A stretch of 64,000 nucleotides of DNA from Mya arenaria (GCF_026914265.1 NC_069133.1:48545355-48609354), one strand, 5' to 3'. Shown: positions 2,573 to 43,809, numbered from the stretch's first letter. The notes: generated by a model from the letters alone, not told the origin. Numbers and translations: made by a program.

Positions 2573-2617
2573 ATGGCCGGATCAATGGTTCTACTTATCT
2601 GCATACTTCTACGAGTA
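2573..2617 (+). CDS. Gene A (death-domain receptor paralogue A), first coding exon: signal peptide MAGSMVLLICILLRV, phase 0
   Basis: ATG followed by a hydrophobic core, then a GTAAGT donor at 2618. Conserved with gene B at 32155-32199. An acceptor-like TTTTTCAG sits immediately upstream, so a 5' UTR exon may lie further upstream. Confidence 0.5.
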
Positions 2618-3016
2618 GTAAGTATGCGAATACGTTTCTAAGCCACCGTAGGCTGTCATACAGTATTTTCAAAGTCCGGCTATTTGTCCGTCCTTAACGT
2701 CTGTTACAAAAATGTGTCTGCACAAAGACTCTAGAATGGCCTCGCCTAGAACTATCAAAATTGAATAATAGGTTTGGGGATCACTAAGTCAAGGGAGTTT
2801 TCAATAGTATTATGATTTGGATATAACATCATTACAAATGCATTCAAATAAATTTAAATTTGTGTAATAATAACAATGCAGAAAATAATTGATTGTATTA
2901 AACTACTATCTAAAAAAAGAAAATTTGAGACATGAAACTTTTATGACAATAAAGCGCAGTGTAACTTAATCATTATTAACGCACAGGTTGAGTTCTGGCT
3001 TTCAAATTTATTTCAG

Positions 3017-3278
3017 TTTCTGGAGGTCGGTGGAGATAGAGTCTTTCGACCTGTGGACACTAAGTGTATCCCAATATGTTCAAATCGGAAAGTGAAAGAC
3101 TGGGCCTTCAACTGTGATGGGGACAATACCACATGTGACTGGCAGTGTTCGGCCCAGAGGAAGGCGTGTCCAGAGGGCCTCACGTATCACTGCGCGGCTG
3201 ACTACGCGGACTTTGAACTACATACCGGCAATATCATCCACTTGGAAGAATGTGCGCTGGAAAAGCCATGCAAGAGAG
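3017..3278 (+). CDS. Gene A exon 2: Cys-rich ectodomain, part 1 (...FNCDGDNTTCDWQCSAQRKACPEGLTYHCAADY...)
   Basis: TTTCAG acceptor at 3011-3016. In frame with ORF 3053..3283. AG|GT donor at 3279. The 3' half is ~95% identical at protein level to gene B exon 2. Confidence 0.7.
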
Positions 3279-3730
3279 GTTGAATAAGAAAAAAATCCTT
3301 ATACATAACACCATGGCAGGGGCGAGTCCAGGATTGGGCGTTAGAGAGGGTGGGATAATTAAGAGGCAAAGCCTTTTGACTGCGCCCTCAGAAAATTACA
3401 AGAAAATGTAAACAATTTCCTATCCGAAATATCGCATTTGGGGCGTATTTTATTACTCTTTTACTATATCGAAATAAAAAATAAACATGCGGATATTTAA
3501 GAGGGGGCGCGCGCCGGGTTTACCCCTGGATCCGGTAGCTCTTACCTTCTATACTTCAGCAGTATTTACATTTAAGCTGTTGCTGTTCCACAATATAACC
3601 TGTTGCTACGGGTTTAATAACAAACAATGTTTTATAATCCGTATAGGGTGATACTTTAGTGAGGTGTTTAGATAATCAACGCAACATTTAAGAAATGTAT
3701 TTCAAATTTCATCGAATGTATTTGTTTCAG

Positions 3731-4081
3731 GCGAAGAACCGAGTATTACTCTATACGCCAATGGAGAAAAACTACCTCCGAACGAGGCAAAGATTAATTG
3801 TATTTCTTGCTCAAACAAATATTTCTACAACAGCCAAGACGGCAGATTGTCCTCGTCATATAGCAGGTGTTTCCAAGAAAAGTTTAACAAGTGCATTCCG
3901 GAGGACAACAAAATTGACTGTGGTGAGTCGTGGCTTAAGCGAACGGAGAGTGATGGCTACTGCAGATGCGATGCGAGGAGAGGGTTCGCTCCTGAGAATG
4001 AAAACATCGACTCCATGTGCTTCTACACTGACGCACATTGTATGTTAAAGAAATGTCCGTCTGCACAGGAGCTGGCTTTAA
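3731..4081 (+). CDS. Gene A exon 3: Cys-rich ectodomain, part 2 (117 codons, 12 Cys)
   Basis: TTTCAG acceptor; A|GTAAGT donor at 4082; phase 1 to 1. Collinear with gene B 33157-33507, same length. Confidence 0.75.
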
Positions 4082-4577
4082 GTAAGTGCTTTTAAGGAAA
4101 ATTGTATTTTGTTTTATAAAATACAGAAAGAGATATAGACGAATAGTGATTGAAGATTGTATATTATATAGATAAGCAAACTCATCTATTTTTAAGTTTT
4201 AAGCACTTTGGAAGTACGACGAGCATTTAGTATGCAATGCTGTCGGGTAGTTTTTCGGTACAGGAAGACATTCAGTAAAATCACAATTAAGCAAAAAACA
4301 AATTATTTGAAGAGCTTTATAATGATCTTATAGGCATCAGGGGGAGCCCAGACCGGTTCCGTTCTGGTGATAGATCGGGTCCACGGAGTATGCTACCGTC
4401 GCAAGACCCGTTTCAAATAAATAAATGTGTGTGTTTTATATAAACGATATCTCAATATAAATGTATATACATGTTATCACTGTGTGTTGATTTGGTGACT
4501 GTGTGTGTCATGTTACAAGCTAATAGATTAAAGTTTTGACCTACTAGTTCAATTAATTAGTCTTTGATTTCTCCTAG

Positions 4578-4659
4578 ATTACTCCTGCATAATCAACTGT
4601 CCAGACGGTTATTACAGGACGGACGATTCAGATGCATGTGTTGAAAGAGCAAGCGCAAC
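4578..4659 (+). CDS. Gene A exon 4: Cys-rich ectodomain, part 3 (NYSCIINCPDGYYRTDDSDACVERASA)
   Basis: CTCCTAG acceptor; GTAAGT donor at 4660. Same 82-nt length as gene B 37393-37474. Confidence 0.7.
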
Positions 4660-4979
4660 GTAAGTACATCGTCTAATTCAATCTTAAGGCCATCTGAGCC
4701 CGTTTTAGGTCTGTGAATAGTTGCTTGAATTGACATCTCCTCTAGAACCGTATGGTCTGTTTTTATGAACCTTGACATTAATCATCCTTATTGGAGCCTC
4801 AATCCACATTGCTTTAACAAAACAATTACATTTAAAACTCATAGAAATCTCTTAAAATCATTACCTCTGAAGTCAATAATAAGTATTTAGACCTTTTATA
4901 AAAAATGCTAAAATTAGTATATCCAACAACATTCCCGCTAGAACACGGGACCTGTTTTACCTATACGACTATAATTTTC

Positions 4980-5530
4980 TTTTTCATAATTTATAATACC
5001 TTGGTCAAGTCAGTATACGCTTGTTGATTTTCTCGTACGTATGATACTTGTGTCTAGTCAGTAAAAGTGTGTTAAATTTCTTGTGCTTATGATGCAGTTG
5101 TATTTTCAGTAAATGTGAGTTTATTTCTTCGATTGTTAAATACATTTGTCTAAGCAGTAAAAGAGTAATTTCCTCGTTTGCATGATACAGTTATCTGGTA
5201 TGCAAATGTGTGTTTATCACCTTGAATGTTTAAAACTTTAATGTTTGGTACGTATGTCTAGTCAGTTAGCGTCTGTCGATTTATTGAATGTTTGATACTT
5301 TTGTCAAGTCAGTTAAAGTTTATTGATTTACTTGTAGGAATGATACTTTTGTATAGTTTGCAAACGCTAGTTGACTTACTCATATGTATGGTACGTTTGC
5401 TTAGTCAGTTAATGCTATTTGATTTCCTCGTTTATTTTACACTATTGTCTCTTCAGTACACGCTTACTGGTATTCTCGTATGATTGATACTTTTGTCGAG
5501 TCAGTAAACGTTTGTTGATTTCGTTTTAAT
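4980..5530. repeat. Intronic satellite with a ~48-bp unit, about 11 degenerate copies, in intron 4 of gene A
   Basis: Recurring ...gtc[ta]agtcagtaaa[ac]g[ct]ttgttgatttcctcgtttgtatgatac... at ~48-bp spacing. The same family is in the homologous intron of gene B. Confidence 0.8.
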
Positions 5531-5830
5531 TATTGTATGAAACATTTCCGCGTATAGCGTATATTCGTTTGTTCCTCTATCTTCTCACCAAACTTACCTG
5601 AAATATTTAGTAGTACAGATGTTTGAAAAACTTCACAATGTGTTCTAAATAGATATACATATTTAACAATGCAAATCATGTTATCATTTACTTGATATCA
5701 TCTTGAAAAAATACACAAATATTTATTCCAGTCCATGATATCTGTAACTTTAAGGCATAAACCATCCTTGATTTATGATACACTTCACTGATTAAATTTA
5801 TTTAAAGTTTTATCAGCTTGATTTGTTTAG

Positions 5831-5916
5831 AGCAAAAACGAAGCCACCAACGACAGCTTCTTCAACAACTGATCAAACATACACTCAGTCTACAATTGAT
5901 TCCACAACCGGAAAAG
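5831..5916 (+). CDS. Gene A exon 5: Ser/Thr-rich stalk (TAKTKPPTTASSTTDQTYTQSTIDSTTGK)
   Basis: TTTAG acceptor; G|GTGGGT donor; phase 2 to 1. Same 86-nt length as gene B 38829-38914. Confidence 0.65.
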
Positions 5917-7196
5917 GTGGGTTCTTTTGGATACTTGTAGTCGAATCTAATGGTGTTCTTCAAATTGAAACATATACGAGTAAACGTGTAATTAAAGGTT
6001 ACGTAAAAACACCATCAATGATGGCTGGAATCCTTCTGATTGAAGCATCCTTTCTCAAGAACTATCGCCTTAAATGACTTCAAAAACGGAAGTATTCAAA
6101 TGCTATGTTAAATCCTTAGTGCAACCTAGGATTAAATAATTTGAGAAAAAAAAATATCGTGCATGTTACTATTATAATTGAGTCTCATATGATGTCTGAT
6201 AATTTACCGAGGTCCACGCGATACGATACTTTAGTAAAAAGATATTTTAAGAAAATAAACCTGAAATTCTCAACTGGATCACCGACTCACAATATGCCAA
6301 TGAGGTAGATATGTGGGTGGAGCATAGCGCTTTGCTAACAGTACCTGAACAATCGCCGGAACAGTCTAAAGAAGATACTAGAGAAATACTGAACATTTTC
6401 AAATCGATTTCGCATAAAGAAATTAAGCTCCTGTTTTTAAAATAAATGTGATGTAAGAGTTTTCGAATGAAAACTTAATAATGGTGTTTAGTATAAAATC
6501 GTAGATTTCTTTACGCTCGTGTTTTTTTGTGCATGACGAGATAAAGGGTGGCAAATCTAAGATACCAAAATCTGGAACCCTTCAGCAAATGTTGATATTT
6601 GCTCAAATATCGTTTTTGAAGACAATTTTAAATAGCGTAAACAGCTTTGTTGTTGCGAAATTGGTTGTTTACCATCATTATGTGATGTTATCAATGTTTG
6701 GTTAGCACGTCAAAATATATTATTGTTGAAGCAAAGTCGTGGCGGTCTAGTGGTCCAAAGGTTGATTATATTGGGTTATTTTTTCTTGACTTCTAAGAAC
6801 ATCTTTCTAGTTAAAAACTGTAAATCATTAGGTTTTCAGAAAGTCACGTGATAAGCAAATTTCTTATTGACGTTGTGTGCGATAAATCATAAACATATAC
6901 TTAGAGTATCTTTCGGTTTTGTTGCATTTTTTAATCGAGATAAATCCATTTATTGGGGTTAAAAAATGTAAAAGTTGAAAAGAAGTCATTTGGATATACA
7001 AACAATCAAATAAGTTTACATATTTAAATCATAATGAATCCTTTATACTTAAATAACAACAACAACAACATTTCTCCAAAAACAAGTTCCTTTGAGTGGC
7101 AAGCATGGAAATGCATTTGTTCCGAAATAACTGAAAATGTGAATATGTGATTTAATGTATATTTTATTTATGGCCTTTTTTTCTCATATAATCTAG

Positions 7197-7292
7197 AGAA
7201 AGTTGTCATCAGCTCGAAGAAGACAGACAAAGTAACAGGAGCAGAATTTGCACCATTTGTCGTCATAATTGCATGGCTATTGATAACGATAT
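7197..7292 (+). CDS. Gene A exon 6: transmembrane helix (...EFAPFVVIIAWLLITI) followed by a basic stop-transfer stretch
   Basis: ATCTAG acceptor; T|GTAAGT donor. A 16-residue hydrophobic stretch. The gene B homologue is 39698-39805. Confidence 0.7.
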
Positions 7293-8469
7293 GTAAGTGA
7301 AAACAACTTTCTCACGGTTTATCCAGGTGCCAGTATTCGTTTATAGTTTTTGTTATTGTAGTAAAGTTATTGTATATGCTTCATAATTTAACACTTATGA
7401 CAATGGTATCGGCCACATTTCTTAATTTTCGACAAATACCCATAAATTACCTAAACAGAACATTTTAGCGGAACAGTATTTCTTATTTGCAGTTTTTCGA
7501 CACGCGTAAGCTTTGATCTAATCGAATAATTTGAAGTATCACATGTTAGAATTCAACATATATTTCTAGTCAATGAAATTGCACATAGGCAGTCATAAAG
7601 TACTAGGCGTAAACATTGAGAATTTCAACTTTCGCGGGTGTTTTAAACGTTTGCCTACTGCCACTCTTCTAATTCATACTCTCTGCGTCAAATTTTGCGT
7701 TAAAAATGTGCCAGCCAATGAGTTTGTATTTTTAGCTATCTAGATGACCAGAATTAATATTTGATAAAAAAGAGCTCATTCGCTTCGTTTTATCAACCCA
7801 TTCTTAGTCATCAAGATTCGACTTCATGCCATCTTATTATAATAAATAAATATTCGCGAATATTTTATTTCGGGAAATGATTTTCCATAGCAAAGCATGC
7901 GCGCGGGAGGTTTAAAAAAGAGAAAGATGAATTCCGCGCCAAGCATATCCACAACTATTATATATTTTCATTTTTAGAAAAACACTTCTCTACATTTTAC
8001 AACACGCGATAATGTATAATCTTAATACTCTTTACGGCAAATTAAATGGTCCCTCCTTGTAGTAAAATGTATTAAATCCATAAAATGTATCATATAGGTC
8101 AACCACAGGTGATAGTAACATAGCCGGGATTGAACGTTTGTTTTTACTTTTAGTTTTGGCCGAAATTTGAGAGCCATCTAATTAATTTATTAATGTTGTA
8201 AAGCCGAATTCATTGGTCAGCAATGAAACAGTCCACTCTTCTTGCATTCAAAGCATAACCGGTGCGCGGTCAAGATCAACATTGCAACACGGGTTTTGAT
8301 AGTGAAAGTAGATACTGTAACAAAATTATTTCGGATCGGATAGAGACTCGTCTAAATCATAATGGTAGGAATAATATTTTAAGCTACTTTGTTGACAGGC
8401 CATTGTTCTCTTATCCCGCTAAATACATTAAGTACTGTATATATAGTTGGTTTATATCATTATTTCTAG

Positions 8470-8574
8470 GTTGTCACAAAGGAAGGATTTTGAAAGAAAA
8501 AAACGAAAAAGGCCTTATGAAGGCAGCCAGATTAATCGTGAAATTAGCACTCTGCCAACGCTCTACTAGTTTAA
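8470..8574 (+). CDS. Gene A exon 7: juxtamembrane cytoplasmic segment (CHKGRILKEKNEKGLMKAARLIVKLALCQRSTSL)
   Basis: TTTCTAG acceptor; A|GTAAGT donor. Same 105-nt length as gene B 41645-41749. Confidence 0.7.
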
Positions 8575-8914
8575 GTAAGTTTTTATCAATTAAAAGTGTA
8601 CCAATTTATTAACGTTTTTAACAAGGACTTTATTTCTTTTTCAAAACTCCGCAAACTTTTTGAACAATCCTCGTGAAACGTTAACAGCAACTTTTTTGTA
8701 AACCCTTGATTAGCGAGGTTGATTTCTTTTAACCACTGGGCCTATATGTTATCATAACTAAATTACTTATATTTATGTAATAATAATTTTAAAGGAAATG
8801 ACGACTCTTGAGTGTGTCGTAGTTTTGCTTACTGGAAGTGCATACATCGAGATTGGTATATATATATATATCATAACATCTTCGTAAGCTTTGTCTCTTT
8901 GTTCTGCAAAAAAG

Positions 8915-9031
8915 TGGAAACCTCCGGCGAAGCTGTTAGTACACACAATGCCGAGTCACAGCAAAACACGGAGGAGGACAAACAGAGTCGAGTGAAACTT
9001 CTTTCAGGCGTCGAACAAGAGGGTAGGAAAG
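8915..9031 (+). CDS. Gene A exon 8a: cytoplasmic linker (METSGEAVSTHNAESQQNTEEDKQSRVKLLSGVEQEGRK), symmetric exon, phase 1 to 1
   Basis: AAAAG acceptor (weak); G|GTAACT donor at 9032. Homologous to gene B exon 41937-42014. Confidence 0.5.
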
Positions 9032-9295
9032 GTAACTGCAATGATATTTATTTCTTAAAAATGTGTTTTAAAGTACTTTAAAAACAAAGAATCCGAAACA
9101 AACGATAAAAACGTGTGGGTCAAAACTGGGACTATATGTTATTTAAACTAAACTGCTTATATTTATGTAAAACATTTTTAAAGGAACGACGACTCTTTAG
9201 TGTGTCGTAGTTTTGCTTAATAGAAGTGCATTCAACGACATTGGTATATAGTCAAACCATCTTCGTAAGCTTTGTCTCTTTGTTCTGCAAAACAG

Positions 9296-9412
9296 TGGAG
9301 ACCTCCGGTGAAGCTGTTAGTACACACACTGCCGGGTCACAGAAAGAAACGGAGGTGGACAACCTGAGTCGAGTGAAACTTCTTTCAGGCGTCGAACAAG
9401 AGGGCAGGAAAG
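9296..9412 (+). CDS. Gene A exon 8b: duplicated copy of exon 8a (…ETSGEAVSTHTAGSQKETEVDNLSRVKLLSGVEQEGRK), 117 nt, phase 1 to 1
   Basis: ACAG acceptor, stronger than that of 8a; G|GTAACT donor at 9413. The ORF is intact. It could be spliced in tandem with 8a, alternatively to it, or be a pseudo-exon. Confidence 0.5.
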
Positions 9413-9942
9413 GTAACTGCAATCATATTTATTTTTTTAAAAATGTGTTTTAAAGTACTTTAAAAACAAAGAATCCGAAACAAACGGAAATGAACTTGTG
9501 GTTCAAAATTTTGAAAATATACTGTTTAGAAAGATTTATTCATACCGACAGTACGTCAAAATTAACTAAATATACTCGTATAGCATATATTGAAGTCGTC
9601 AATGCACACATTTGTCCCTCTTATGAGAGGATTGATCCGAAAATAGCATTTAAAAAAAACTAGATAAAAGTTCACATAGTCGCATGGTTTTGACAGATCT
9701 GAACAGCTTCATTAATTTATTTATGTTTTAGTATTTGGCTCTATATTTTTCATCGTTCAGTTTATAAGGGACTACAGTTTGTTGTTGTTTTTCCACAATA
9801 ATCATGCCATATTTATAATGCAATTACCTGTACTGAATGTTCCTAAACATTGTTTGTTTATAGACTGACTTACGTAGTACAAACGATTGTCTTGAAAAAC
9901 AATATCATTTGATTTTTGAAAGAAGCACAATTCATATTTTAG

Positions 9943-10218
9943 CTCCCTGGAAGAAAAAAAGTCCAAGTGACATAGAACTATTGCACGTTGCGTCGCTAAT
10001 TGGAAAAGGCTGGAGAGGTTTGGGTGCTCATCTGGACATCAGAACCTCCCTATTAGACCAAATAGAAAAAAATAACTGTGGCCATAAAGATATTGTTTAT
10101 GAAATGCTGAGAGAATGGCGAAATTCCAGCTCTCAACCAACATTGAGTCATTTAGAGGATGCAATTCGTGAGTCAGGCGTTGTGTTTGACTGGGACTTTG
10201 TAAAACAGGATATTTTAG
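9943..10218 (+). CDS. Gene A exon 9: death domain (...IELLHVASLIGKGWRGLGAHLDIRTSLLDQIEKNNCGHKDIVYEMLREWRNSSSQPTLSHLEDAIRESGV...)
   Basis: TTTTAG acceptor at 9937-9942; G|GTAGGT donor at 10219. Typical death-fold signature: a conserved Trp in helix 1, LxxxW/L-R in helices 3 to 4, and ...L..AL... in helix 6. The paralogue is 42330-42614. Confidence 0.75.
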
Positions 10219-10506
10219 GTAGGTCTCCCACTTTCACCTTTTCTTTAAATAAACCATATGCCATTGTTTGTTGTTGTTGTTTTTTTCCTTTTTGTGACCA
10301 CATTTCAATTAATTTTATAGTATTGAATAATATTAAGTTTATTTACTTTTCATCCAAGCATTATATTGTCATATTTTTATTTTGCTTTTATTGTTAAATT
10401 CTAATTGTTTTTCCTTTCAGTAAGTCTGTATCATATATATATATATGTAAATATATACTAGTATTTACCAATACTATTCATTATTAATCAATTCTTTAAA
10501 ACAAAG

Positions 10507-10730
10507 ACAAGCGTCACCAAAATGCTGCCTTGAATAATACTCCGGACGAGGGTGAAAAAAACGCTGCCACGAATGATATTCCGGACGAGGGTGACAAAAA
10601 TGCTGTCTCGGTTGATAATGAGATGAACAACACTCTCAATGCTAGAGTAGAGGCACATTTATCTGGTAGAAGCATAGCCAGTTCTTGCAACATAGCCAGT
10701 AGAAGCAGGACAGACGAAACACAATTTTAA
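10507..10730 (+). CDS. Gene A last coding exon: acidic tail with two copies of the N-x-[ST]-P/T-D-E-G-x-K-N-A motif, stop at 10728-10730
   Basis: ACAAAG acceptor. The frame continues into ORF 10530..10730. The 3' UTR 10741-11000 is homologous to 43886-44110. Confidence 0.7.
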
Positions 10731-26165: not shown

Positions 26166-26189
26166 GGTTAGAAGGCGACTAGCCGACCT

Positions 26190-30138: not shown

Positions 30139-30141
<3 letters not shown>

Positions 30142-30209
<68 letters not shown>

Positions 30210-30218
30210 GTAGTAGTG
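30142..30218. repeat. (ATT)n microsatellite, the short orthologue of the 985-1740 array
   Basis: Seen directly. Same flank as in block A: gtataaacgcagtaagtt. Confidence 0.9.
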
Positions 30219-32154: not shown

Positions 32155-32199
32155 ATGAACGTATCAATGATTCTACGAATATGCCTAATTCTACGAGTA
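32155..32199 (+). CDS. Gene B (death-domain receptor paralogue B), first coding exon: signal peptide MNVSMILRICLILRV
   Basis: Conserved with gene A 2573-2617. GTAAGT donor at 32200. TTTCAG immediately upstream. Confidence 0.45.
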
Positions 32200-32692: not shown

Positions 32693-32945
32693 ATCCACGA
32701 GGTCAGTGGAGGTTTTATACCTGTGGAGTCTCGGTGTGCCAAAACATGTTCGAGACAGGAGATGGGCTGGTCCTTCAACTGTGATGGGGACAATACCACA
32801 TGTGACTGGCAGTGTGCGGCCCAGAGGAAGGATTGTCCAGAGGGCCTGACGTATCACTGCGCGGCTGACTACGAGGACTTTGAACTGCATACCGGTAATA
32901 TCAACTACTTGGAAGAATGTGCCCTGGAAAAGCCCTGCAAGAGAG
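32693..32945 (+). CDS. Gene B exon 2: Cys-rich ectodomain, part 1 (...CAKTCSRQEMGWSFNCDGDNTTCDWQCAAQRKDCPEGLTYHCAADYEDFELHTGNINYLEECALEKPCKR)
   Basis: GTCAG acceptor; G|GTTTGT donor. Three codons shorter than gene A exon 2. In frame with ORF 32723..32953. Confidence 0.7.
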
Positions 32946-33156
32946 GTTTGTAGTAACGAACTCATACGTAACACCTTGCCTGCTCTACTGTATTAGGATT
33001 TACATTCTAAATGTCGCCGTTCTTCAATTCAAACTGCTGCTAGGGGCTAATAAGCAAACATCAATGTTTTATATTTTGTACTAGGTGAGAGGCTCAGTTG
33101 ATATACGCATCTTATAAAAAATGTATTTCGATTCATATCGAATGTATTTGTTTTAG

Positions 33157-33507
33157 GTGAAGAACCAAGTATCACTTTATACGCCAATGGAGAAAAACTT
33201 CCCCCGAACAAAGCCAGGATAAATTGTATACCTTGCTCAAACAAACTCTTCTTCAACAACATAGACGGCAGATTGTCCTCGTCATATAGCAGGTGTTTCA
33301 GGCAAAAGTTTAACAAGTGCATTCGGGAGCGCAACAAAATAAACTGTGGTGAGTCCTGGCTTGAACGAAAGATGACTGACGGCTTCTGCAGGTGCGATGC
33401 AAGGAGAGGGTTCGCTCCTGAGAATGAAAACATCGAAACAAAATGTTTCTTCGCTTCTGAACTTTGTACGTTGAGGAAATGTCCGTCTACACAGGAGCTG
33501 GCTTTAA
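33157..33507 (+). CDS. Gene B exon 3: Cys-rich ectodomain, part 2
   Basis: TTTTAG acceptor; A|GTAAGT donor at 33508. 351 nt, as in gene A. ORF 33273..33521 is in frame. Confidence 0.75.
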
Positions 33508-33639
33508 GTAAGTGTTTTTAAGGAAAATTAAACAAATATTGTTATAAGATATTATATATCATATAGATAATCAAACTCGTATATTTATATGCATATAGCA
33601 TTTTCAAAGTACGATGGGCATTCAGTATGTTATGCATCC

Positions 33640-33900
33640 GGCCCCAATTTCTCGAAACTTCTTAAGTCCCTTATAACAGGATTAAGCTAAACTCGCTATT
33701 TTTGTTCTTCAATAATTTGCATAATATTAACTTCTTAAAGAGGTTTTATTCTTCGCATAGGAGTTATATTTATGATGATCTAATGAACCATTTTTCATTT
33801 ATCAAAATTCAATTTCAGTATGTATTTTATCTAATTGAAATAAGCTACTTAAGCCTGTCAAGCTTAAGAAGTTTCGAGAAATTGGGGCCCGAAGCTTGTT
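33640..33900. mobile_element. MITE-like element (~260 bp) with ~27-bp terminal inverted repeats GGCCCCAATTTCTCGAAACTTCTTAAG, in intron 3 of gene B
   Basis: The left terminus at 33641-33667 and the reverse complement of the right terminus at 33871-33897 (cttaagaagtttcgagaaattggggcc) are perfect inverted repeats. The AT-rich interior has no ORF. It is absent from gene A intron 3. Confidence 0.7.
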
Positions 33901-36900: not shown

Positions 36901-37302
36901 CAATGATGGCTTTTAACACAATTCGTGGTGGTAAATAATAAAATGAAAACTACAGGGACAAGTCCAGCCCTGTTATTAGACACAAGGCAATGGTCTAAAT
37001 GACAATGAACAAGCCATAATGCAGCAAAATGGCGCACACAGACCTGAGTTCACTTGATGGATTGTTTAATAAAATCCTTCAAATGAACGTATTGAATCTG
37101 GTGTCAAAGGGGATTATTGTAAAGAATACATCCAACAAATAGAATTGCAACAATTTCATATATAACAAAGTTGTTACAGCAGCTAACCCATGTGTTGCAT
37201 GAATGTCTGTCATACCTTCAGTTAAGTGCTACGTATTTCAAATGACTAGTTTTAATTCAAAACGTACAAGCCATTTGTTAAACATGTATACAACAATACA
37301 AA

Positions 37303-37311
37303 TTATTATTA

Positions 37312-37366
<55 letters not shown>
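37303..37366. repeat. (ATT)n microsatellite just upstream of gene B exon 4
   Basis: Seen directly. Confidence 0.9.
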
Positions 37367-37392
37367 TTTAACTTTATTTATGTTATTTGTAG

Positions 37393-37474
37393 ATTACACC
37401 TGCATCAGCCATTGTCCAGACGGTTACCACAGAACGGACGATTCAGATAAATGTGTTGAGAGAGCAAGCGCCAC
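37393..37474 (+). CDS. Gene B exon 4: Cys-rich ectodomain, part 3 (NYTCISHCPDGYHRTDDSDKCVERASA)
   Basis: TTTGTAG acceptor; GTAAGA donor at 37475. 82 nt. Confidence 0.7.
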
Positions 37475-38159
37475 GTAAGAATTGCTTCTATTTCCATTCA
37501 TACTGTGCCCCTTGTATGTCCGATATAATTCCAACAAACGACATCTCATATTAGCCCGCGTGATCATTTTTAAGGATCATACATTGATCAAACAAAATAG
37601 TTACATTTTTAACTTTTCCCAAAAAAATTCACCTCTTAAGTCAATGGACAGAAATCAGACCCTTTCTCAAAATTGCTAAAATGATCCTGTACGTCAAAAT
37701 GCAAGGCCGATATAAGAATGAAACTGTTGTCCCTATTTGACTATATTAAAAGATCTTCTCTGAAATAAATGGTTAGAATTCAAATTAATTGGACAGAAAT
37801 GGCAATTATGGGAACCATTTATATAATTTGCTAAACATTAAAACATTTAACAACTTAATCGATAAAAACATCTACCAGAGGCAGGACCGATTTTCCCTCT
37901 GAAACCAATTTTTAAAAATCAGTATTATTTCACTCAATGATTATTGGGTGACCCTTTATTGAACAATCGCCGAAACGAAACTGGTCCGTACAAAAGCGCG
38001 GGGCTTGATTTCCGTATAGGACTATTAAAATCTTCATGAGATGACATTTTATCGTAACTATAACAAAGAAACTCCTTAAAAAATCCAAATAAACTATACT
38101 GATTTTCTAAGTGTGCGTATTAGATTTAGTTTGTTTTACTTGATAGTACTCCACTTTCG

Positions 38160-38790
38160 TTTGTAAATGCTATGTTTTGTAGTCAGTAAACGTTGTTTTT
38201 TTTCATGTACATTGTATGCATGATATGTTTGTCTAATCAGTAAACGCTTGTTGATTTCCTCGTATGTTTGATACGTTTTGTCTAATCAGTTAACGCTTGT
38301 TGACTTCCTCATTTTTTTATACTTTTATCTAGTCAGTAAACGCTTGTTTATTTCCCCGTGTGTTTGAAATGTTTGTCTTATCAGTAAACACGTGTTGATT
38401 TCATCGTTTGTATTATTCTCTTGTCAAGTCAGTAAACGCTTGTTGATTTTCTCGTTTGTATGATACTCTTGTCAAGTAAGTAAGCACGTGTTGATTTCCT
38501 CGTTTGTATGATACTCTTGTCAAGTCAGTAAACACGTGTTGATTTCCTCGTTTGTATGATACTCTTGTCAAGTCAGTAAACGCTTGTTGATTTCCTCGTT
38601 TGTATGATACTCTTGTCAAGTCAGTAAACGCTTGTTTATTTCCTCGTTTGTATGATACTAAGTAAGTAAACGCTTGTTGATTTCCTCGTTTGTATGATAC
38701 TCTTGTGAAGTCAGTAAACGCATAATGATTTCCTCGTTTGTATGATACTCTTGTCAAGTCAGTAAACGCTTGTGGATTAACTCGCATGCA
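38160..38790. repeat. Intronic 48-bp satellite, about 13 copies, well homogenised, in gene B intron 4
   Basis: Unit cctcgtttgtatgatactcttgtcaagtcagtaaacgcttgttgattt, with period 48-49 bp. ORF 38413..38796(-) is a repeat artefact. Confidence 0.9.
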
Positions 38791-38828
38791 TTTCAAAATT
38801 CAAACTTTTATCAGCATAATTATTTTAG

Positions 38829-38914
38829 AGCCAAAACGAAGACGCCAAAGACAGCTTCTTCTACAGCTGATCAAACACACACTCAGGTTACAATCGCCAC
38901 CACAACTGAAAATG
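38829..38914 (+). CDS. Gene B exon 5: Ser/Thr-rich stalk (TAKTKTPKTASSTADQTHTQVTIATTTEN)
   Basis: TTTTAG acceptor; G|GTATGT donor. 86 nt. Confidence 0.65.
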
Positions 38915-39697
38915 GTATGTTGTATTTGGATATTGTTGTGGCATAATACTGCAGTAAGATAGCCTGATACCGTTCTCGAATTGTTTTGTGTTAACTACTT
39001 TACTTTCGCGATAATTATCTAGCTATCTAGTTAATATTCGCGAAACGTTTTGGTAAATTAAATTACATAAGGCTAGAGACAGGCTTGACAGTTCTCGGAA
39101 CTGCAACTTGTTACCTTTTCATGCTTTACAATACTAACAGGTTATCTCGTTATTGTTTACGAATTCTACGTAATAAGTAACATAAACACTGGTTAACTAG
39201 ATAAGATTCGTGTAACCAATTATCTATAAATACATTTCTGTCTCTTTGCAGTATTTGGTTATCTTGTTATAATTTGTGAATACCACTTAATACGTAACAT
39301 CATAACCAAGCGACTAGATACGATTCGTGTTACCAGTTATCAGTAATATGCCACCATAGCATAATTGTATTCTAATGTTATGTTGTTGGGTTTTTTTTCA
39401 CATTGAAACACATCTATAATTGTTTGAACAAAAATGTTTTCAAGATCCTTTATCCTTTTCATTGTAGCTTCTTATCTCAAGTATATACGCTTTTAATTAC
39501 TATAATTTGAAGTATTCAAATTATATCTATAAGATCTTTCGTACTAAAAAACATCAAAATATCACCATAAACAAGCCTTTACAGGGTCTTTTGAGTGGCT
39601 AGCATGGAAATGCATTTGTTCCGAATTAACTGAATTGCATTTATGTGTATTAATGTATATCACATTTATGACATTTGCTTTTTCTCGTCTAATTCAG

Positions 39698-39805
39698 AGA
39701 AAGTTGTCGTCAGTACAAAGAAGACAAATGTTCTGGGTATAGTCATTGGAGTAGTACTTGGAACAGTTGTCGTAGGCCTTATTGCATGGATATTGATGAA
39801 GATCT
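39698..39805 (+). CDS. Gene B exon 6: transmembrane helix (LGIVIGVVLGTVVVGLIAWILM)
   Basis: ATTCAG acceptor; T|GTAAGT donor. Four codons longer than gene A exon 6. Confidence 0.7.
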
Positions 39806-41644
39806 GTAAGTAAATACAATTTATTAACGGTAAGCCTCGGTGACTGTTTTCGTTTTTAAGAAATACTTGAATATGCTTTATATCTTTACTAGTATGATAA
39901 GGGTATCTGTCACATTGTTCGATAAATTCCAATTAATAACTTTAATATGACATATTTAACTATACTGTGTTTGGTTGTTTTTTGCCGATTTTCGGCACGC
40001 TTTGATATATTAGGAATTGTCTCACATTAGAATACAACCTACATTTGCAAAAATTAAGTCATTAAGACATAGACTAAATCATTGAGATATTTTTTGCGGG
40101 TGTTTGAACGTCCGTCTACTGTTACCCATCTAATAACACACTCTCTGTGACAGACTTGGCATTGACAATATGTCAGCCAATGAGGTTGTATTCCAAGTCA
40201 GTTTAATGACCAGAAGTATTATCTTGATTAACAAGAGCTCGTTCGATACGCTAAATCAGCCCATTCCTAGCAAATAGGATTCTACTCCATGTCATCTTAT
40301 CGCGAAAATTTTATTTCGGAGAATGATTCTCCATCGAGAAACTTGCGCGCGCGAGGTTTAACTGCGAGAAAGATGATCACGACACATGAACTGCCAAATA
40401 TTTGCGCCGATCAGTTTAAAAAAAACACTGTTTGTTCTTTACGTTTAACAAAAAACTTCTTGAAAAAAAGTTATAAATGTTGTAATACGAACACTGGACA
40501 AAAGGTCGAAATTGCAACATGGGTATTGAAAGTGAAAGTAGCTATACTGAAACAAGAATGATTCGATTCGGGTAAATACGCGCCTTAATCATCGAGGTCA
40601 TAATGGTAGGGATGATATTTTAAGCTACTTTTTTTAAATGCATTCGCAAAATATGCATGTTAGCCTCTATGAATCGTGTTTTAGAGGGGAATTGTTGAAA
40701 CTAAGTTTTCAAACCTCTTTATTTTTTCGTTATATGTATTTTCAGAGACGAGTCTGCGCATTTCGTCTAATTATGCAATAATTAGTAGCAGGAACTATCA
40801 TTAAGGTTGTGTTTTTCTTGTAGCTGAGTCTTTCATCTTTCTGGCGATATTAGAGTTGTATAACCATAATAAATACATCCACACGCACGTTTTTCATAAT
40901 GCATTTTGAAGACTATATCTGCATGCACAATGTCCTTTCTTGGGGCAGATAAATATAGTAAAATATAAACATGTGCTTCAACTATAATAAATGCGTCATA
41001 TGAAAATAGAATATAAAATATTGTAAAATATAGAGAGATAATATATAAATAATATAGTATACGGTCAGTAATCTAGCGTAATAACATAGCTATAAATAAT
41101 TGTATAAATTTGGTTTGACCAACTTAAAGATAGTTCCTCCGTCACATAATTGCATTCAAAAATAGAAATGCATGCGCATATACTTGAAATTCTGCCAGTC
41201 AAAATTTAATCATAAAAAATAATGTATTTCTGGGCAAGTAAATAAATAATTAATTAAACGTTTAATCTTTTAACCTTGAATCATATCTTAGGAAAATATA
41301 CTTGTTATTTGTCGTGATTGTCATCAAATATTGTCGAAATTCGCTATGTCGAACTCCGTTATCTCGATGCTCTGAATATGTTGAACTTCATTCGATTTTT
41401 TCCGTTTAATCATACACTTAATACATTTCGGTTATATCGAATGTTCGTTATCTCAAAATATTTTCCAAGATCCCAAAGGCTTTGACTGTGTATGAATTTA
41501 CCAAATTAATCTTTAAATGTTTACATATATTTGTTCAGAAAATATAGAGGCATATTATAAGTGAATCATATACGTACTATATATACATTTGGTTATTCAA
41601 TATCATCAAGACTTCCAACGTATATTTTTCCCTATGATTTTTAG

Positions 41645-41749
41645 ATTGGCACAAAGAAATTATTAGGAAGGAGTACAACGAAAATGGAAGGAAAGAGGCA
41701 GCCAGATTAATGGTGGAAAAAGCACTCTGCCAATACTCTTCCTGTTTAA
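41645..41749 (+). CDS. Gene B exon 7: juxtamembrane segment (YWHKEIIRKEYNENGRKEAARLMVEKALCQYSSCL)
   Basis: TTTTAG acceptor; A|GTAAGT donor. 105 nt. Confidence 0.7.
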
Positions 41750-41936
41750 GTAAGTTTTTATCAATAAAATGTGTACCAATTTATAAACGTTATCAACAGG
41801 GACATTATTTTTATTTCAAAATTCCGCAAACTTTCTGAACAACCCTCGTAAAACTTTAAAAACATATTTTCCTGACCTCCTGGGCATATATTATATGTTA
41901 ACTAAATTGCTTATATCTATGTAATATTTTTTAAAG

Positions 41937-42014
41937 AGTCACAGGGAGACTCGGATGAAAACAACCAGAATCGTGTTAATCTTCTTACACACGTCGAACA
42001 AGAAGGCAGGGGAG
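41937..42014 (+). CDS. Gene B exon 8: linker (KSQGDSDENNQNRVNLLTHVEQEGRG), single copy
   Basis: TTTTTTAAAG acceptor; G|GTAACT donor. 78 nt against 117 nt (x2) in gene A. Confidence 0.6.
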
Positions 42015-42177
42015 GTAACTGCAATAATGTTTATTTTTTCAAATAATTGTTTGAAAGTACTTTCAAAACGAAGAAACCGAAACGAAAATCTTGTCGTTCG
42101 AAATGTTAAAGACATATTGTTAAGTAAGATTTATTTATACCAACAGGCAGTCGAAATTAGTTATATATAATTTATAT

Positions 42178-42236
42178 AAAGAAACAAATTGTTGAAACAT
42201 TAAATACATGTAAATGTTTCAACAATTTGTTTCTTT
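42178..42236. repeat. Perfect inverted repeat with 24-bp arms (aaagaaacaaattgttgaaacatt ... aatgtttcaacaatttgtttcttt) and an 11-nt loop, in gene B intron 8, ~95 bp upstream of the death-domain exon
   Basis: Seen directly. The rest of this intron aligns with gene A (9850-9900), and there the second arm is missing. Confidence 0.85.
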
Positions 42237-42329
42237 AGAGATTGACTTACGTAGTACAAACGATTGTCTTGAGAAACAATTATTAATATTATTAATTGAT
42301 TTTTGAAAGTTTCATGATTCATATTTTAG

Positions 42330-42614
42330 TTTCTTGGAAAAGAAAAATACCAAGTGACCGAGAACTATGGAACGTTGCGTCGCTCATTGGAGAAAACTGG
42401 AAAGGTTTGGGTTTAGATCTGGGGCTCAGCAGAGTCACGATACACCACATTGAATATGACAACAATATAAATGGTCATATTGATGTTGTTCATCGTATGC
42501 TGATAGAATTGCGCAACTCCAGACCTGATGCAACACTAAATGATTTAAAGGAAGCAATTATTCGGTCAGGCGTTGACTTTAACTGGGGCTCTGAAAAAAA
42601 TCAGGAGCTTTACG
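42330..42614 (+). CDS. Gene B exon 9: death domain (...RELWNVASLIGENWKGLGLDLGLSRVTIHHIEYDNNINGHIDVVHRMLIELRNSRPDATLNDLKEAIIRSGV...)
   Basis: TTTTAG acceptor; G|GTAGGT donor. About 50% identity to the gene A death domain, with death-fold positions conserved. Confidence 0.75.
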
Positions 42615-42913
42615 GTAGGTGTTCCAGTTTTATCTTTTCTTAAAACTAAGCATTTGCCGGTGTTTCAAATATAGGTAAAATGTTTGGCCGATTTCGCTTT
42701 TGTGACCACATTTTAATTACATTAGATTGAACCAGATCAAGAGTTTATTTCCTTTTCATAACAACTTTATATTGTAATATATAGTTTGTTTCACATTCTC
42801 ACGACCGTCCCTGTAAAATTCCGATAACCCCTTCTTTCCCAATTAGTTCATCTGTATAAAATACTTGTATTTCTATATACTATTGTTTATCAATTACTTC
42901 TTTTAAAACATAG

Positions 42914-43809
42914 ACGAGCGTGATCAAAACGCTGCTTTGAATGATACTACAGACGAACATGACCAAAACGCTGTCTTGAATGATTCTATGGATGAACAGG
43001 AGCCAAACGCTGTTTTCAATGATTATACTGACGAACGTGGCCAAAACGCTGTCTTGAATGATACTACGGTCGAACGTGAGCCAAACGCTGTCTTCAACGA
43101 TTCTACGGACGAACGTGGCCAAAACACTGTCTTGAATGATACTACGGTCGAACGTGAGCCAAACGCTGTCTTCAACGATTCTACGGACGAACGTGGCCGA
43201 AACGCTGTCTTGAATGATACTACGGTCGAACGTGAGCCAAACGCTGTTTTCAAAGATACTACGGACGAATGTGGCCAAAACGCTGTCTTGAATGATACTA
43301 CGGTCGAACGTGAGCCAAACGCTGTTTTCAAAGATACTACAGACGAACGTGGCCGAAACGCTGTCTTGAATGATTCTACGGTCGAGCGTGAGCCAAACGC
43401 TGTTTTCAATGATAGTACAGACGAACGTGGCCGAAGCGCTGTCTTGAATGATTCTACGGTCGAGCGTGAGCCAAACGCTGTTTTAAATGATACTACAGAC
43501 GAACGTGGCCGAAACGCTGTCTTGAATGAATCTACGGTCGAGCGTGAGCCAAACGCTGTTTTAAATGATACTACAGACGAACGTTGCCGAAGCGCTGTCT
43601 TGAATGATTGTACGGTCGTGCGTGAGCCAAACGCTGTATTCAATGATTCTACGGACGAACGTGGCCCAAACGCTGTCTTGAATGATTCTACGGATGAGCT
43701 AGGCATTAACGCTGTCTCGAATGACACTACGGGCGATGGTGACCGAAACGCTGTCTTTATTGATATTGAGACGAACAGCAATATCGATGTTGAAGGTGAC
43801 AGCTTGTAG
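42914..43809 (+). CDS. Gene B last coding exon: expanded acidic repeat tail (~10.5 copies of a 26-aa / 78-nt unit, NDTTVEREPNAVF-NDSTDERGRNAVL), stop at 43807-43809
   Basis: CATAG acceptor. ORF 42937..43809. The gene A homologue, 10507-10730, has about one unit. The gene A C-terminal residues (...SRTDETQF) are out of frame or lie after the stop in gene B. Confidence 0.7.
42937..43750 (+). repeat. Coding minisatellite: 78-nt unit made of two 39-nt half-units, about 10.5 copies
   Basis: Seen directly. The antisense ORFs 43023..43781(-) and 42880..43278(-) are artefacts of the repeat. Confidence 0.9.

What the first reader, a model, noticed from the sequence alone, without database searches (positions are those of the whole stretch)
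2573..43809. Tandemly duplicated genes for a death-domain receptor with an unusual domain architecture
Both paralogues encode signal peptide, Cys-rich ectodomain, Ser/Thr stalk, one transmembrane helix, cytoplasmic death domain, and an acidic repeat tail. The roughly 22 ectodomain cysteines (spacings such as C-x3-C-x12-C-x6-C-x3-C-x6-C-x7-C) do not look like a classic TNFR (tumour necrosis factor receptor) cysteine-rich domain (C6 module), an immunoglobulin domain, or an LRR (leucine-rich repeat). A death domain on this ectodomain would be a receptor family without an obvious vertebrate counterpart. The duplicated pair ~33 kb from an HSPA12-like gene fits the lineage-specific immune and stress gene expansions reported in bivalves.
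Basis: partly seen in the sequence, partly recalled or inferred. Interest (0 to 1): 0.8.

Follow-up and report, generated by a model that had tools for sequence, protein, structure and literature searches.

The report
Divergent TNFR-like death receptors, clam
Two neighbouring soft-shell clam genes encode membrane receptors with a death domain; their cysteine-rich outer part has no recognisable sequence family, but its predicted structure resembles TNF receptors, so this is a strongly diverged, clam-lineage version of a known receptor type, not a wholly new one.

Summary
The window is Mya arenaria DNA. It carries two intact tandem paralogues: gene A at 2573-10730 (11 exons, 586 aa) and gene B at 32155-43809 (10 exons, 762 aa). 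My splice models are residue-identical to RefSeq LOC128211945 and LOC128210999.

Both genes encode a signal peptide, an ectodomain with exactly 22 cysteines, a Ser/Thr stalk, one transmembrane helix and a death domain. Only gene B has a large acidic repeat tail (78 bp x 10.9).

- **By sequence, the ectodomain is not TNFR.** It has no Pfam hit. The PROSITE TNFR pattern matches 0 of 28 family members. hhalign against TNFRs gives 3.7% probability.

The architecture is therefore that of a classic death receptor or p75NTR.

An exhaustive HMMER search of 1.84 billion proteins found only 43 homologues. Every one that carries a name is an uncharacterised protein (one is labelled twitchin-like) from a heteroconch bivalve. 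In other members the same ectodomain sits on CARD, OTU-like, B-box or fn3/Ig modules.

Verdict: a new, lineage-restricted variant of a known kind, of moderate interest.

The parts
2573..2617 (+). Gene A (LOC128211945) exon 1: start codon and signal peptide MAGSMVLLICILLRV
   Evidence: Donor is GTAAGT. The 11-residue Kyte-Doolittle hydropathy peak is 3.04. The full model is identical to P0001.
3017..3278 (+). Gene A exon 2: N-terminal half of the ectodomain, Cys 1-9
   Evidence: AG/GT boundaries; the exon ends in phase 1. Three helices and longer strands are predicted here.
3731..4081 (+). Gene A exon 3: C-terminal half of the ectodomain, Cys 10-19, including C-x2-C...C-x7-C modules
   Evidence: In unionid homologues this position keeps 'CEPCPxGYY'.
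4578..4659 (+). Gene A exon 4: last cysteine module, C-x3-C-P-D-G-Y-Y-R-x7-C
   Evidence: This is the only stretch that hhalign aligns to the start of a TNFR cysteine-rich domain.
5831..5916 (+). Gene A exon 5: Ser/Thr-rich stalk
   Evidence: The stalk is 43% Ser+Thr.
7197..7292 (+). Gene A exon 6: end of the stalk and the transmembrane helix (aa 291-309)
   Evidence: The 19-residue Kyte-Doolittle peak is 2.28, followed by the basic stretch HKGRILKEK.
8470..8574 (+). Gene A exon 7: cytoplasmic juxtamembrane segment
8915..9031 (+). Gene A exon 8: acidic linker
   Evidence: 117 nt, phase 1 in and phase 1 out.
9296..9412 (+). Gene A exon 9: in-frame tandem duplicate of exon 8
   Evidence: 90.6% identical to exon 8. 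It is included in the RefSeq protein P0001.
9943..10218 (+). Gene A exon 10: death domain (aa 421-512)
   Evidence: Pfam PF00531, E = 2.4e-10, 40.9 bits. The FADD death domain is the best single-sequence PDB hit.
10507..10730 (+). Gene A exon 11: short acidic tail with about three degenerate 13-14-aa units, then the stop codon
32155..32199 (+). Gene B (LOC128210999) exon 1: start codon and signal peptide MNVSMILRICLILRV
   Evidence: The full model is identical to P0003.
32693..32945 (+). Gene B exon 2: N-terminal half of the ectodomain
33157..33507 (+). Gene B exon 3: C-terminal half of the ectodomain
37393..37474 (+). Gene B exon 4: last cysteine module (CPDGYHR)
38829..38914 (+). Gene B exon 5: Ser/Thr-rich stalk
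39698..39805 (+). Gene B exon 6: transmembrane helix (aa 284-302)
   Evidence: The 19-residue Kyte-Doolittle peak is 2.83.
41645..41749 (+). Gene B exon 7: juxtamembrane segment
41937..42014 (+). Gene B exon 8: linker, single copy and shorter than in gene A
42330..42614 (+). Gene B exon 9: death domain (aa 370-464)
   Evidence: Pfam PF00531, 25.6 bits on the exon alone and 22.0 bits in the 464-aa construct, against a cut-off of 22.6. It is 83% identical to the death domain of the third paralogue P0002.
42914..43809 (+). Gene B exon 10: acidic tail built from a coding minisatellite (78 bp x 10.9 at 42915-43764, equal to alternating 13-aa units NAVLNDTTVEREP / NAVFNDSTDERGR), then the stop codon
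   Evidence: TRF score 1192, 90% matches. Net charge is -47 over 298 aa.

Best explanation
These are two tandemly duplicated, intact genes of the soft-shell clam Mya arenaria. A third close paralogue, LOC128211946, is recorded on a sequence of the same length (70,040,107 bases, presumably the same chromosome) but lies outside the window. Both genes encode type I membrane death receptors.

The ectodomain is a disulfide-stapled module of about 225 residues with 22 cysteines. Its sequence has diverged beyond recognition, but at least its membrane-proximal half is predicted to fold like the cysteine-rich-domain rod of TNF-receptor-superfamily proteins. Behind it come an O-glycosylation-type Ser/Thr stalk, one transmembrane helix, and a death domain of the CRADD/RIPK1/FADD type.

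Most likely mechanism (inferred, not shown):
1. An extracellular protein ligand, possibly one of the many bivalve TNF-family ligands, clusters the receptor.
2. The clustered death domains nucleate a death-domain oligomer with a cytosolic adaptor. FADD and CRADD exist in bivalves (PMC11463336).
3. That complex drives caspase activation and/or NF-kB-type stress and immune signalling.

The ectodomain family is confined to heteroconch bivalves. It behaves as a shuffled module, carried on death domain, CARD, OTU-like, B-box or fn3/Ig partners in other members.

Shown: the gene structures, the domain order, the death domain, the taxonomic restriction, and the predicted fold similarity. Inferred: homology to TNFRs, the ligand type, and the downstream pathway.
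For: - **Gene models.** They have clean GT-AG introns and conserved phases, and are identical to the RefSeq proteins.
- **Death domain.** Pfam Death is above threshold in A and in the paralogues P0002 and P0013. The death-domain profile hits CRADD at 3.8e-10, RIPK1 at 4.6e-9 and FADD at 9e-7. Gene A's death domain alone hits FADD at 4e-5, then NRADD, RIPK1 and DR3.
- **Topology.** One transmembrane helix and a signal-like N-terminus.
- **Structure model.** AF2 with the 28-sequence alignment gives pLDDT 89.8 and pTM 0.79, and all five models score 87-90.
- **Foldseek against PDB.** Ranks 1-38 are all TNFRSF ectodomains (CD40, TNFR1, RANK, p75NTR, HVEM, DR5, Fas, 4-1BB, CD27). Best E = 6.6e-4, probability 0.97-0.99.
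- **Foldseek against BFVD.** The best viral hits include annotated TNFR homologues.
- **Motif.** Unionid members keep 'CEPCPxGYY'.
- **Selection.** Ectodomain dN/dS is 0.32.
- **Distribution.** 43 homologues among 1.84e9 representative proteins. All that carry names are bivalves of Mya, Dreissena, Mactra, Mercenaria, Ruditapes, Potamilus and Sinanodonta.
Against: - **No sequence link to TNFRs.** Pfam TNFR_c6 is absent. PF25314 TNFR_nem hits only 3 of 28 members, with best E = 0.058.
- **Pattern and profile tests fail.** The PROSITE pattern matches 0 of 28 members against 6 of 6 controls. hhalign gives 3.7% probability over 16 columns. Against a single-CRD profile the score is 15.7, compared with at most 12.9 in 20 column shuffles.
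- **The N-terminal part is unlike a TNFR.** The first 100 or so residues are predicted to contain three helices and have no structural match.
- **Cytoplasmic constraint looks weak.** dN/dS between A and B is 1.37 in the death domain and 1.06 in the transmembrane/juxtamembrane part. One copy may therefore be under relaxed constraint.
- **Nothing functional was examined.** There is no expression, ligand or signalling evidence here.
Confidence: 0.6

Rival explanations
1. The ectodomain is an independently evolved, bivalve-born cysteine-rich module. Its resemblance to TNFR rods is convergent or generic to small disulfide ladders. It was joined to a death domain by exon shuffling. On this reading the receptor works like a death receptor but is not a TNFR-superfamily member and need not bind a TNF-type ligand. 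It could, for example, bind a microbial or lectin-like ligand.
For: - No sequence-level homology appears by any method.
- The helix-containing N-terminal half has no match.
- The same ectodomain sits on CARD, OTU-like, B-box and fn3/Ig partners, which is typical of a freely shuffled module.
- The death-domain exon has a different history from the ectodomain exons.
- The family is absent outside heteroconch bivalves in 1.84e9 proteins.
Against: - The structure hits are very specific. TNFRSF fills Foldseek ranks 1-38. EGF, furin-like and laminin-type ladders appear only at E above 0.29.
- The 'CEPCPxGYY' motif in unionid members and the terminal 'CPDGYYR' module are classic starts of TNFR cysteine-rich domains.
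Confidence: 0.27
2. The genes are clam counterparts of p75NTR/NRADD-type receptors. These bind cystine-knot, neurotrophin-like dimers and act mainly in the nervous system, not in immune or apoptotic death-receptor signalling.
For: - The architecture is the same as p75NTR: TNFR-like rod, Ser/Thr stalk, transmembrane helix, long juxtamembrane linker, death domain.
- p75NTR structures appear among the fold hits (3buk_C at E = 0.015, 1sg1_X, 3ij2_X).
- NRADD is the second-best family for gene A's death domain (E = 0.03).
Against: - p75NTR is not the best fold hit.
- The death-domain profile prefers CRADD, RIPK1 and FADD.
- A true p75NTR orthologue would be expected (from my own knowledge of that family) to be widely conserved and to match TNFR_c6. 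This family is confined to one bivalve clade and is tandemly expanded, with at least 9 close paralogues in Mya.
Confidence: 0.05
3. One or both copies, gene B especially, no longer signal. They would be decaying duplicates or decoy/regulatory receptors with a degenerate death domain and a runaway repeat tail.
For: - dN/dS is 1.37 in the death domain and 1.06 in the transmembrane/juxtamembrane part between A and B.
- Gene B's death domain sits at the Pfam threshold, 22.0-25.6 bits against 22.6.
- The 78-bp minisatellite has expanded to 10.9 copies in B only.
Against: - Both reading frames are fully open across 10-11 exons, with intact splice sites.
- Ectodomain dN/dS is 0.32.
- B's death domain is 83% identical to that of the third paralogue P0002, which passes the Pfam Death threshold. 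The high A-B dN/dS therefore reflects two distinct death-domain lineages, not decay.
- The repeat keeps the reading frame for 290 codons.
Confidence: 0.08

Closest known systems
Vertebrate TNFR-superfamily death receptors (Fas/TNFRSF6, TNFR1, DR5, DR3)
   Same: - Type I topology.
- A single transmembrane helix.
- A cytoplasmic death domain of the FADD/RIPK1/CRADD-related type.
   Different: - No TNFR_c6 or PROSITE signature, and no profile-profile similarity.
- 22 cysteines in a single block of about 225 residues, with a helix-containing N-terminal half that has no TNFR counterpart.
- A Ser/Thr stalk, a 110-residue acidic linker, and in gene B a 298-residue acidic repeat tail after the death domain.
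- Restricted to heteroconch bivalves.
p75NTR (TNFRSF16) and NRADD
   Same: The overall order is the same: TNFR-like rod, O-glycosylated Ser/Thr stalk, transmembrane helix, long juxtamembrane region, C-terminal death domain. Both appear among the fold hits and the death-domain hits.
   Different: - Neither is the top hit.
- There is no sequence similarity in the ectodomain.
- The family is tandemly expanded and lineage-specific, not a conserved single-copy orthologue.
Canonical molluscan TNFRs (for example the scallop Chlamys farreri TNFR, and the Crassostrea gigas TNFRs of which some carry a death domain)
   Same: They are bivalve type I receptors with a cysteine-rich ectodomain and a death domain, and they belong to expanded immune and stress gene families (PMC4979521; PMC4346834).
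   Different: Those proteins were identified through the recognisable TNFR cysteine-rich-domain signature. The family here fails that signature, so domain-based surveys would miss it. No homologue was found in the 1.84-billion-protein search that carries a name from oysters, mussels or scallops.
Cysteine-rich domains of the calcium-sensing/taste receptors and of Eph receptors
   Different: They align over only 56-90 residues. Their domain context is entirely different (class C GPCR, receptor tyrosine kinase). They have no death domain.

Membership tests
TNF receptor superfamily (TNFRSF) | Cysteine-rich domains that match the sequence signature (Pfam PF00020 TNFR_c6; PROSITE PS00652) | tested here: not met
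   - No TNFR_c6 hit at E<=10 for gene A, gene B or any of the 28 family ectodomains.
- The PS00652 regular expression, written from memory, matches 0 of 28 members against 6 of 6 human TNFR controls.
TNF receptor superfamily (TNFRSF) | Detectable homology to TNFR ectodomains by profile-profile comparison | tested here: not met
   - hhalign of the family profile A2 against the TNFR profile A3 gives probability 3.7% over 16 columns. A3 was validated against the PDB, with E down to 1e-60.
- Against a single-CRD profile the score is 15.7, compared with at most 12.9 for 20 shuffles. The match covers only the terminal CPDGYYR module.
TNF receptor superfamily (TNFRSF) | Three-dimensional fold: an elongated ladder of disulfide-linked A/B modules | tested here: inconclusive
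   - The AF2 model has pLDDT 89.8.
- Foldseek ranks 1-38 in the PDB are all TNFRSF, with probability up to 0.99 and best E = 6.6e-4.
TNF receptor superfamily (TNFRSF) | Type I membrane topology: signal peptide, extracellular cysteine-rich domains, single transmembrane helix | tested here: met
   Hydropathy shows an N-terminal hydrophobic segment and one transmembrane peak followed by basic residues. SignalP and TMHMM were not available.
TNF receptor superfamily (TNFRSF) | Binds a trimeric TNF-family ligand | not testable with these tools
   This needs binding assays, or at least complex prediction with Mya TNF-family ligands.
Death receptors (death-domain-bearing TNFRSF subgroup) / death-domain superfamily | A cytoplasmic death domain (Pfam PF00531) | tested here: met
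   - Gene A scores 38.2-40.9 bits against a cut-off of 22.6.
- Gene B scores 25.6 bits on the exon alone and 22.0 bits in the 464-aa construct.
- The paralogue P0002 scores 22.9 bits.
- The death-domain profile hits CRADD at 3.8e-10, RIPK1 at 4.6e-9 and FADD at 9e-7 in the PDB.
Death receptors (death-domain-bearing TNFRSF subgroup) / death-domain superfamily | The death domain recruits an adaptor (FADD or TRADD type) and activates caspase or NF-kB | not testable with these tools
   This is inferred only. FADD and CRADD orthologues are reported in bivalves (PMC11463336).
p75NTR/NRADD | Orthology to p75NTR: four TNFR_c6 cysteine-rich domains, a type II death domain, conservation across bilaterians | tested here: not met
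   - There are no TNFR_c6 domains.
- p75NTR is not the best fold hit.
- NRADD matches gene A's death domain only at E = 0.03.
- The family is confined to heteroconch bivalves.

The most novel reading that the evidence does not exclude
The 22-cysteine ectodomain would be a previously undescribed extracellular sensor module born in heteroconch bivalves. It would combine a novel helix-containing cap with a TNFR-like stalk, and evolution would have plugged it directly onto different intracellular signalling heads: death domain, CARD, an OTU-like putative deubiquitinase, B-box. It also occurs with fn3/Ig arrays. Receptors that carry a CARD or an OTU-like protease directly behind the membrane have, to my knowledge, no vertebrate counterpart. 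They would amount to an adaptor-free shortcut from ligand sensing to inflammasome-like or ubiquitin signalling. The two genes in this window would be the death-domain branch of that system.
Probability: 0.3. Interest if true: 0.7.

Novelty: new variant of a known kind. Interest (0 to 1): 0.5.

Why it matters
**Missed by standard surveys.** Surveys of invertebrate apoptosis and immune receptors find TNFRs through their sequence signature, so this family is invisible to them. All members that carry a name are annotated 'uncharacterized', 'hypothetical' or, in one case, 'twitchin-like', and there is no Pfam family. The death-receptor repertoire of clams and freshwater mussels may therefore be undercounted.

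**A natural experiment in receptor wiring.** The family carries one ectodomain on different cytoplasmic heads: death domain, CARD and OTU-like.

**Relevance to Mya arenaria.** This species is the host of a transmissible leukaemia (my own knowledge, not tested here), so lineage-specific death receptors are plausible players in cell-death control.

**Limits.** The kind of molecule, a type I receptor with a TNFR-like rod and a death domain, is well known. Domain-shuffled immune gene expansions are already a recognised feature of bivalve genomes (PMC4346834).

Tried and rejected
- **AF2 with only the 7 Mya paralogues.** It gave pLDDT 38 and was unusable. It was replaced by the 28-sequence alignment.
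- **Sequence searches of the ectodomain profile against the PDB.** Profiles A1 and A2 gave nothing at E<=10.
- **Pfam on every family ectodomain at E<=10.** Only sub-threshold noise came back: TNFR_nem in 3 of 28 members at E = 0.058, and cEGF and Ephrin_rec_like in 1 each.
- **hhalign against TNFR profiles.** Both the whole-ectodomain profile and the single-CRD profile were negative apart from the terminal CPxGYY module.
- **Foldseek against afdb50.** The library was not installed.
- **The search for homologous proteins with the diverse alignment.** It added no new taxa.
- **The look-up of encoding contigs for P0001 and P0002.** Neither is on record, so the position of the third paralogue and any transcript contigs could not be checked.
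- **IL-17R/CIKS death-domain paper (PMC11087794).** Read and judged irrelevant.
- **OTU assignment for the shared C-terminal domain of P0014, P0019, P0020, P0021 and P0034.** It stays below threshold at 22.3 bits against 23.3, and there is no PDB hit. I call it only 'OTU-like'.
- **HSP70 Pfam and PDB searches on the HSPA12-like ORFs.** Both were negative or weak. The identity was settled by homologue names.
- **Rfam and tRNA scans of the window.** Both were empty.
- **Ig, LRR and EGF readings of the ectodomain.** Rejected, because there were no hits in Pfam or in the fold searches.

Full report
**1. What is in the sequence**

The window is AT-rich eukaryotic DNA. A blastn of its first 22 kb against the next 24 kb gives a colinear chain of matches at 67-86% identity. 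The chain runs from about 50-12,540 to about 28,160-45,440, which marks a tandem segmental duplication.

Starting from the long cysteine-rich and death-domain ORFs, I read the sequence directly and assembled two gene models.
- Gene A has 11 exons, from 2573 to 10730.
- Gene B has 10 exons, from 32155 to 43809.
- Every intron is GT-AG.
- The intron phases are the same in the two copies, and both reading frames are open from ATG to stop.

A protein search then identified the source as Mya arenaria. It returned proteins identical, residue for residue, to my models: P0001 = LOC128211945 (586 aa) and P0003 = LOC128210999 (762 aa). A third close paralogue, LOC128211946 (P0002), is recorded on a sequence of the same length, presumably the same chromosome. 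Its cysteine-rich exons occur only twice in the window, so it lies outside it.

**2. Check of the described features**

- **Cysteines.** Each ectodomain has exactly 22, with identical spacing in A and B except for one loop. The 22 are conserved across the Mya paralogues.
- **Stalk.** It is 40-43% Ser+Thr.
- **Membrane topology.** Hydropathy shows an N-terminal signal-like segment and a single transmembrane helix followed by basic residues.
- **Death domain.** Pfam Death is clearly present in gene A at 38-41 bits against a cut-off of 22.6. It is borderline in gene B, at 25.6 bits for the exon alone and 22.0 in the longer construct.
- **Death-domain type.** A profile of the death domains of A, B, P0002 and P0013 hits CRADD (3.8e-10), RIPK1 (4.6e-9) and FADD (9e-7) in the PDB. 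Gene A's death domain alone is closest to FADD.
- **Tail.** In gene B it is a coding minisatellite of 78 bp x 10.9 at 90% identity. This gives alternating 13-residue units and a net charge of -47. Gene A has only about three degenerate units.
- **Exon 8.** Gene A carries an in-frame tandem duplicate of exon 8, 117 nt at 90.6% identity. The death domain is therefore exon 10 in A and exon 9 in B.
- **HSPA12-like neighbour.** It is real: 100% identical to 'HS12A-like protein [Mya arenaria]', with 497 homologues at E<=1e-10. It lies 8.5 kb beyond gene B.

**3. What the ectodomain is**

*Sequence evidence.* By sequence the ectodomain belongs to no described family.
- Pfam gives nothing at E<=10 for A or B.
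- For the 28 family ectodomains scanned one by one, Pfam gives only sub-threshold noise. The best recurring match is PF25314 TNFR_nem in 3 of 28 members at E = 0.058.
- Profile searches against all PDB sequences find nothing at E<=10.
- I built a control alignment of six human TNFR ectodomains from memory and validated it against the PDB, with E down to 1e-60. hhalign between the family profile and this TNFR profile gives 3.7% probability over 16 columns.
- A single-CRD profile aligns only to the last module, C-P-D-G-Y-Y-R. It scores 15.7 against at most 12.9 in 20 column shuffles.
- The PROSITE TNFR pattern, recalled from memory, matches 6 of 6 controls and 0 of 28 family members.

*Structure evidence.* This points the other way.
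- With only the seven Mya paralogues, AlphaFold failed at pLDDT 38.
- An exhaustive HMMER search of 1.84 billion representative proteins with the ectodomain profile found 43 homologues.
- A 28-sequence alignment of these raised the model to pLDDT 89.8 and pTM 0.79, with all five models at 87-90.
- Foldseek against the PDB returns TNFR-superfamily ectodomains at every rank from 1 to 38: CD40, TNFR1, RANK, p75NTR, HVEM, DR5, Fas, 4-1BB and CD27. The best E is 6.6e-4 and probabilities reach 0.99. Furin-like and EGF ladders appear only at E above 0.29.
- In the viral structure library the best hits include annotated viral TNFR homologues, but none reaches E<=0.001.
- In the unionid members the position that aligns with C105-x2-C108 of gene A reads 'CEPCPxGYY', a classic TNFR cysteine-rich-domain motif.

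*Limits of this evidence.*
- TM-scores are low, which is expected for bendy rods.
- At most about 112 of 225 residues superpose.
- The first 100 or so residues are predicted to contain three helices, which TNFR cysteine-rich domains lack, and match nothing.
- I had no access to the coordinates, so I could not check disulfide pairing.

I conclude that at least the membrane-proximal half is TNFR-like in fold. Common ancestry with TNFRs is likely but not proven.

**4. Distribution and modularity**

All named homologues come from heteroconch bivalves:
- Imparidentia: Mya, Dreissena, Mactra, Mercenaria and Ruditapes.
- Unionida: Potamilus and Sinanodonta.

Two further homologues come from unnamed sequencing-run assemblies. 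No homologue carries a name from an oyster, mussel, scallop or any non-bivalve, and nearly all are annotated 'uncharacterized' or 'hypothetical' (one is 'twitchin-like'). I found no paper that describes the family.

The ectodomain is combined with different partners:
- Death domain: P0001, P0002, P0013.
- CARD: P0020 at 1.7e-9 and P0026 at 9.4e-7.
- A conserved C-terminal domain with an invariant Cys and an invariant His that scores just below the Pfam OTU threshold.
- A weak B-box match.
- fn3/Ig arrays.

Within the local cluster the exons have different histories. Ectodomains of A and P0002 are 91% identical, and each is 77-78% identical to B. Death domains of P0002 and B are 83% identical, and each is 48% identical to A.

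This mosaic explains the dN/dS values between A and B. They are 1.37 in the death domain and 1.06 in the transmembrane/juxtamembrane part, against 0.32 in the ectodomain. The high cytoplasmic values therefore need not mean decay.

**5. Mechanism**

The best-supported reading is a death receptor. A ligand clusters the TNFR-like ectodomain. The death domains then assemble with a cytosolic death-domain adaptor, and caspase or NF-kB-type signalling follows. FADD and CRADD orthologues are reported in bivalves (PMC11463336). TNF and TNFR families are expanded and stress-responsive in oysters (PMC4346834; PMC4979521). All of this is inference from domain content. Ligand, partners and expression were not testable here.

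The rivals are:
- Convergent origin of the ectodomain (0.27).
- A p75NTR/NRADD-type role (0.05).
- Loss of signalling in one copy (0.08).

**6. Comparison with what is known, and novelty**

The protein works like a TNFRSF death receptor or p75NTR and shares their architecture. As a member of that superfamily it fails the sequence-defined criteria and meets the fold criterion only inconclusively. I therefore file it as 'TNFR-like', not as a TNFR.

It is a new, lineage-restricted variant of a known kind. Two things make it interesting: standard annotation cannot see it, and its ectodomain is reused on CARD and OTU-like heads. Interest is 0.5.

**7. Other features of the window**

- Several micro- and minisatellites.
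- Remnants of non-LTR retrotransposons.
- No Rfam family or tRNA gene.

Noticed in passing
window 8915-9031 and 9296-9412: Exon 8 of gene A is tandemly duplicated in frame: 117 nt each, 90.6% identical, together with flanking intron sequence. Both copies are in the RefSeq protein. Gene B and the third paralogue have one, shorter, copy.
   Followed up: partly
window 9943-10218 versus 42330-42614 (and P0002): The exons have mosaic histories. The ectodomains of gene A and P0002 are 91% identical, and each is 77-78% identical to B. The death domains of P0002 and B are 83% identical, and each is only 48% identical to A. This suggests exon swapping or gene conversion among paralogues, and it explains the dN/dS of 1.37 in the death domain between A and B.
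   Followed up: partly
relatives P0014, P0019, P0020, P0021, P0034, P0022, P0026, P0030, P0043, P0045 (other bivalve proteins, not in the window): The same 22-cysteine ectodomain is fused to other modules: CARD (E = 1.7e-9 and 9.4e-7), a conserved OTU-like C-terminal domain with an invariant Cys and an invariant His (22.3 bits against a cut-off of 23.3), a weak B-box match, or long fn3/Ig arrays. A membrane receptor with a CARD or OTU-like head directly behind the membrane is unusual.
   Followed up: partly
window 42915-43764: Gene B's tail is a coding minisatellite: 78-bp unit, 10.9 copies, 90% matches. The opposite strand also shows a 252-aa ORF (43023-43781), which is probably an artefact of the stop-free repeat.
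   Followed up: partly
window 38229-38778 and 4990-5522: Intron 4 of gene B holds a 48-bp tandem repeat of 11.6 copies. Intron 4 of gene A holds a degenerate homologous array. The repeat therefore predates the duplication.
   Followed up: no
window 33508-37392 versus 4082-4577: Intron 3 is 3.9 kb in gene B and 0.5 kb in gene A. Together with the tail expansion, this accounts for most of the length difference between the two duplicated blocks, about 17.3 kb against 12.5 kb.
   Followed up: no
window 25236-26168: An 18-bp tandem repeat of about 52 copies sits between the two genes, in the most GC-rich part of the window (GC 0.45). It produces several long spurious ORFs on both strands.
   Followed up: no
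window 28901-29445: A 31-bp tandem repeat of 17.6 copies lies upstream of gene B. Its ORF gave a spurious Peptidase_S9 Pfam hit with no significant stretch.
   Followed up: no
window 1020-1742: A trinucleotide (TAG/CTA-type) microsatellite of about 241 copies lies about 0.8 kb upstream of gene A. It gives long poly-Thr, poly-Val and poly-Ile ORFs.
   Followed up: no
window 46105-49136 (minus strand) and 50893-51243 (plus strand): These are remnants of non-LTR retrotransposons. They contain endonuclease (Exo_endo_phos), reverse transcriptase (RVT_1, E = 4.8e-25) and zf-RVT pieces split over several ORFs, plus a second reverse-transcriptase fragment on the plus strand.
   Followed up: partly
window 52344-55721 (minus strand): This is an HSPA12-like gene with at least three coding ORFs. 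It is 100% identical to 'HS12A-like protein [Mya arenaria]' and belongs to a very large expansion, with 497 homologues at E<=1e-10, mostly from Mya. The local Pfam copy gives only a sub-threshold HSP70 hit at 12.1 bits.
   Followed up: yes
window 14190-14675 (minus strand) and 26979-27335 (plus strand): Two ORFs of 161 and 118 aa lie between the paralogues. Neither has a Pfam match. The first begins with a basic, Pro/Ser-rich stretch. Whether either one is coding is unknown.
   Followed up: no
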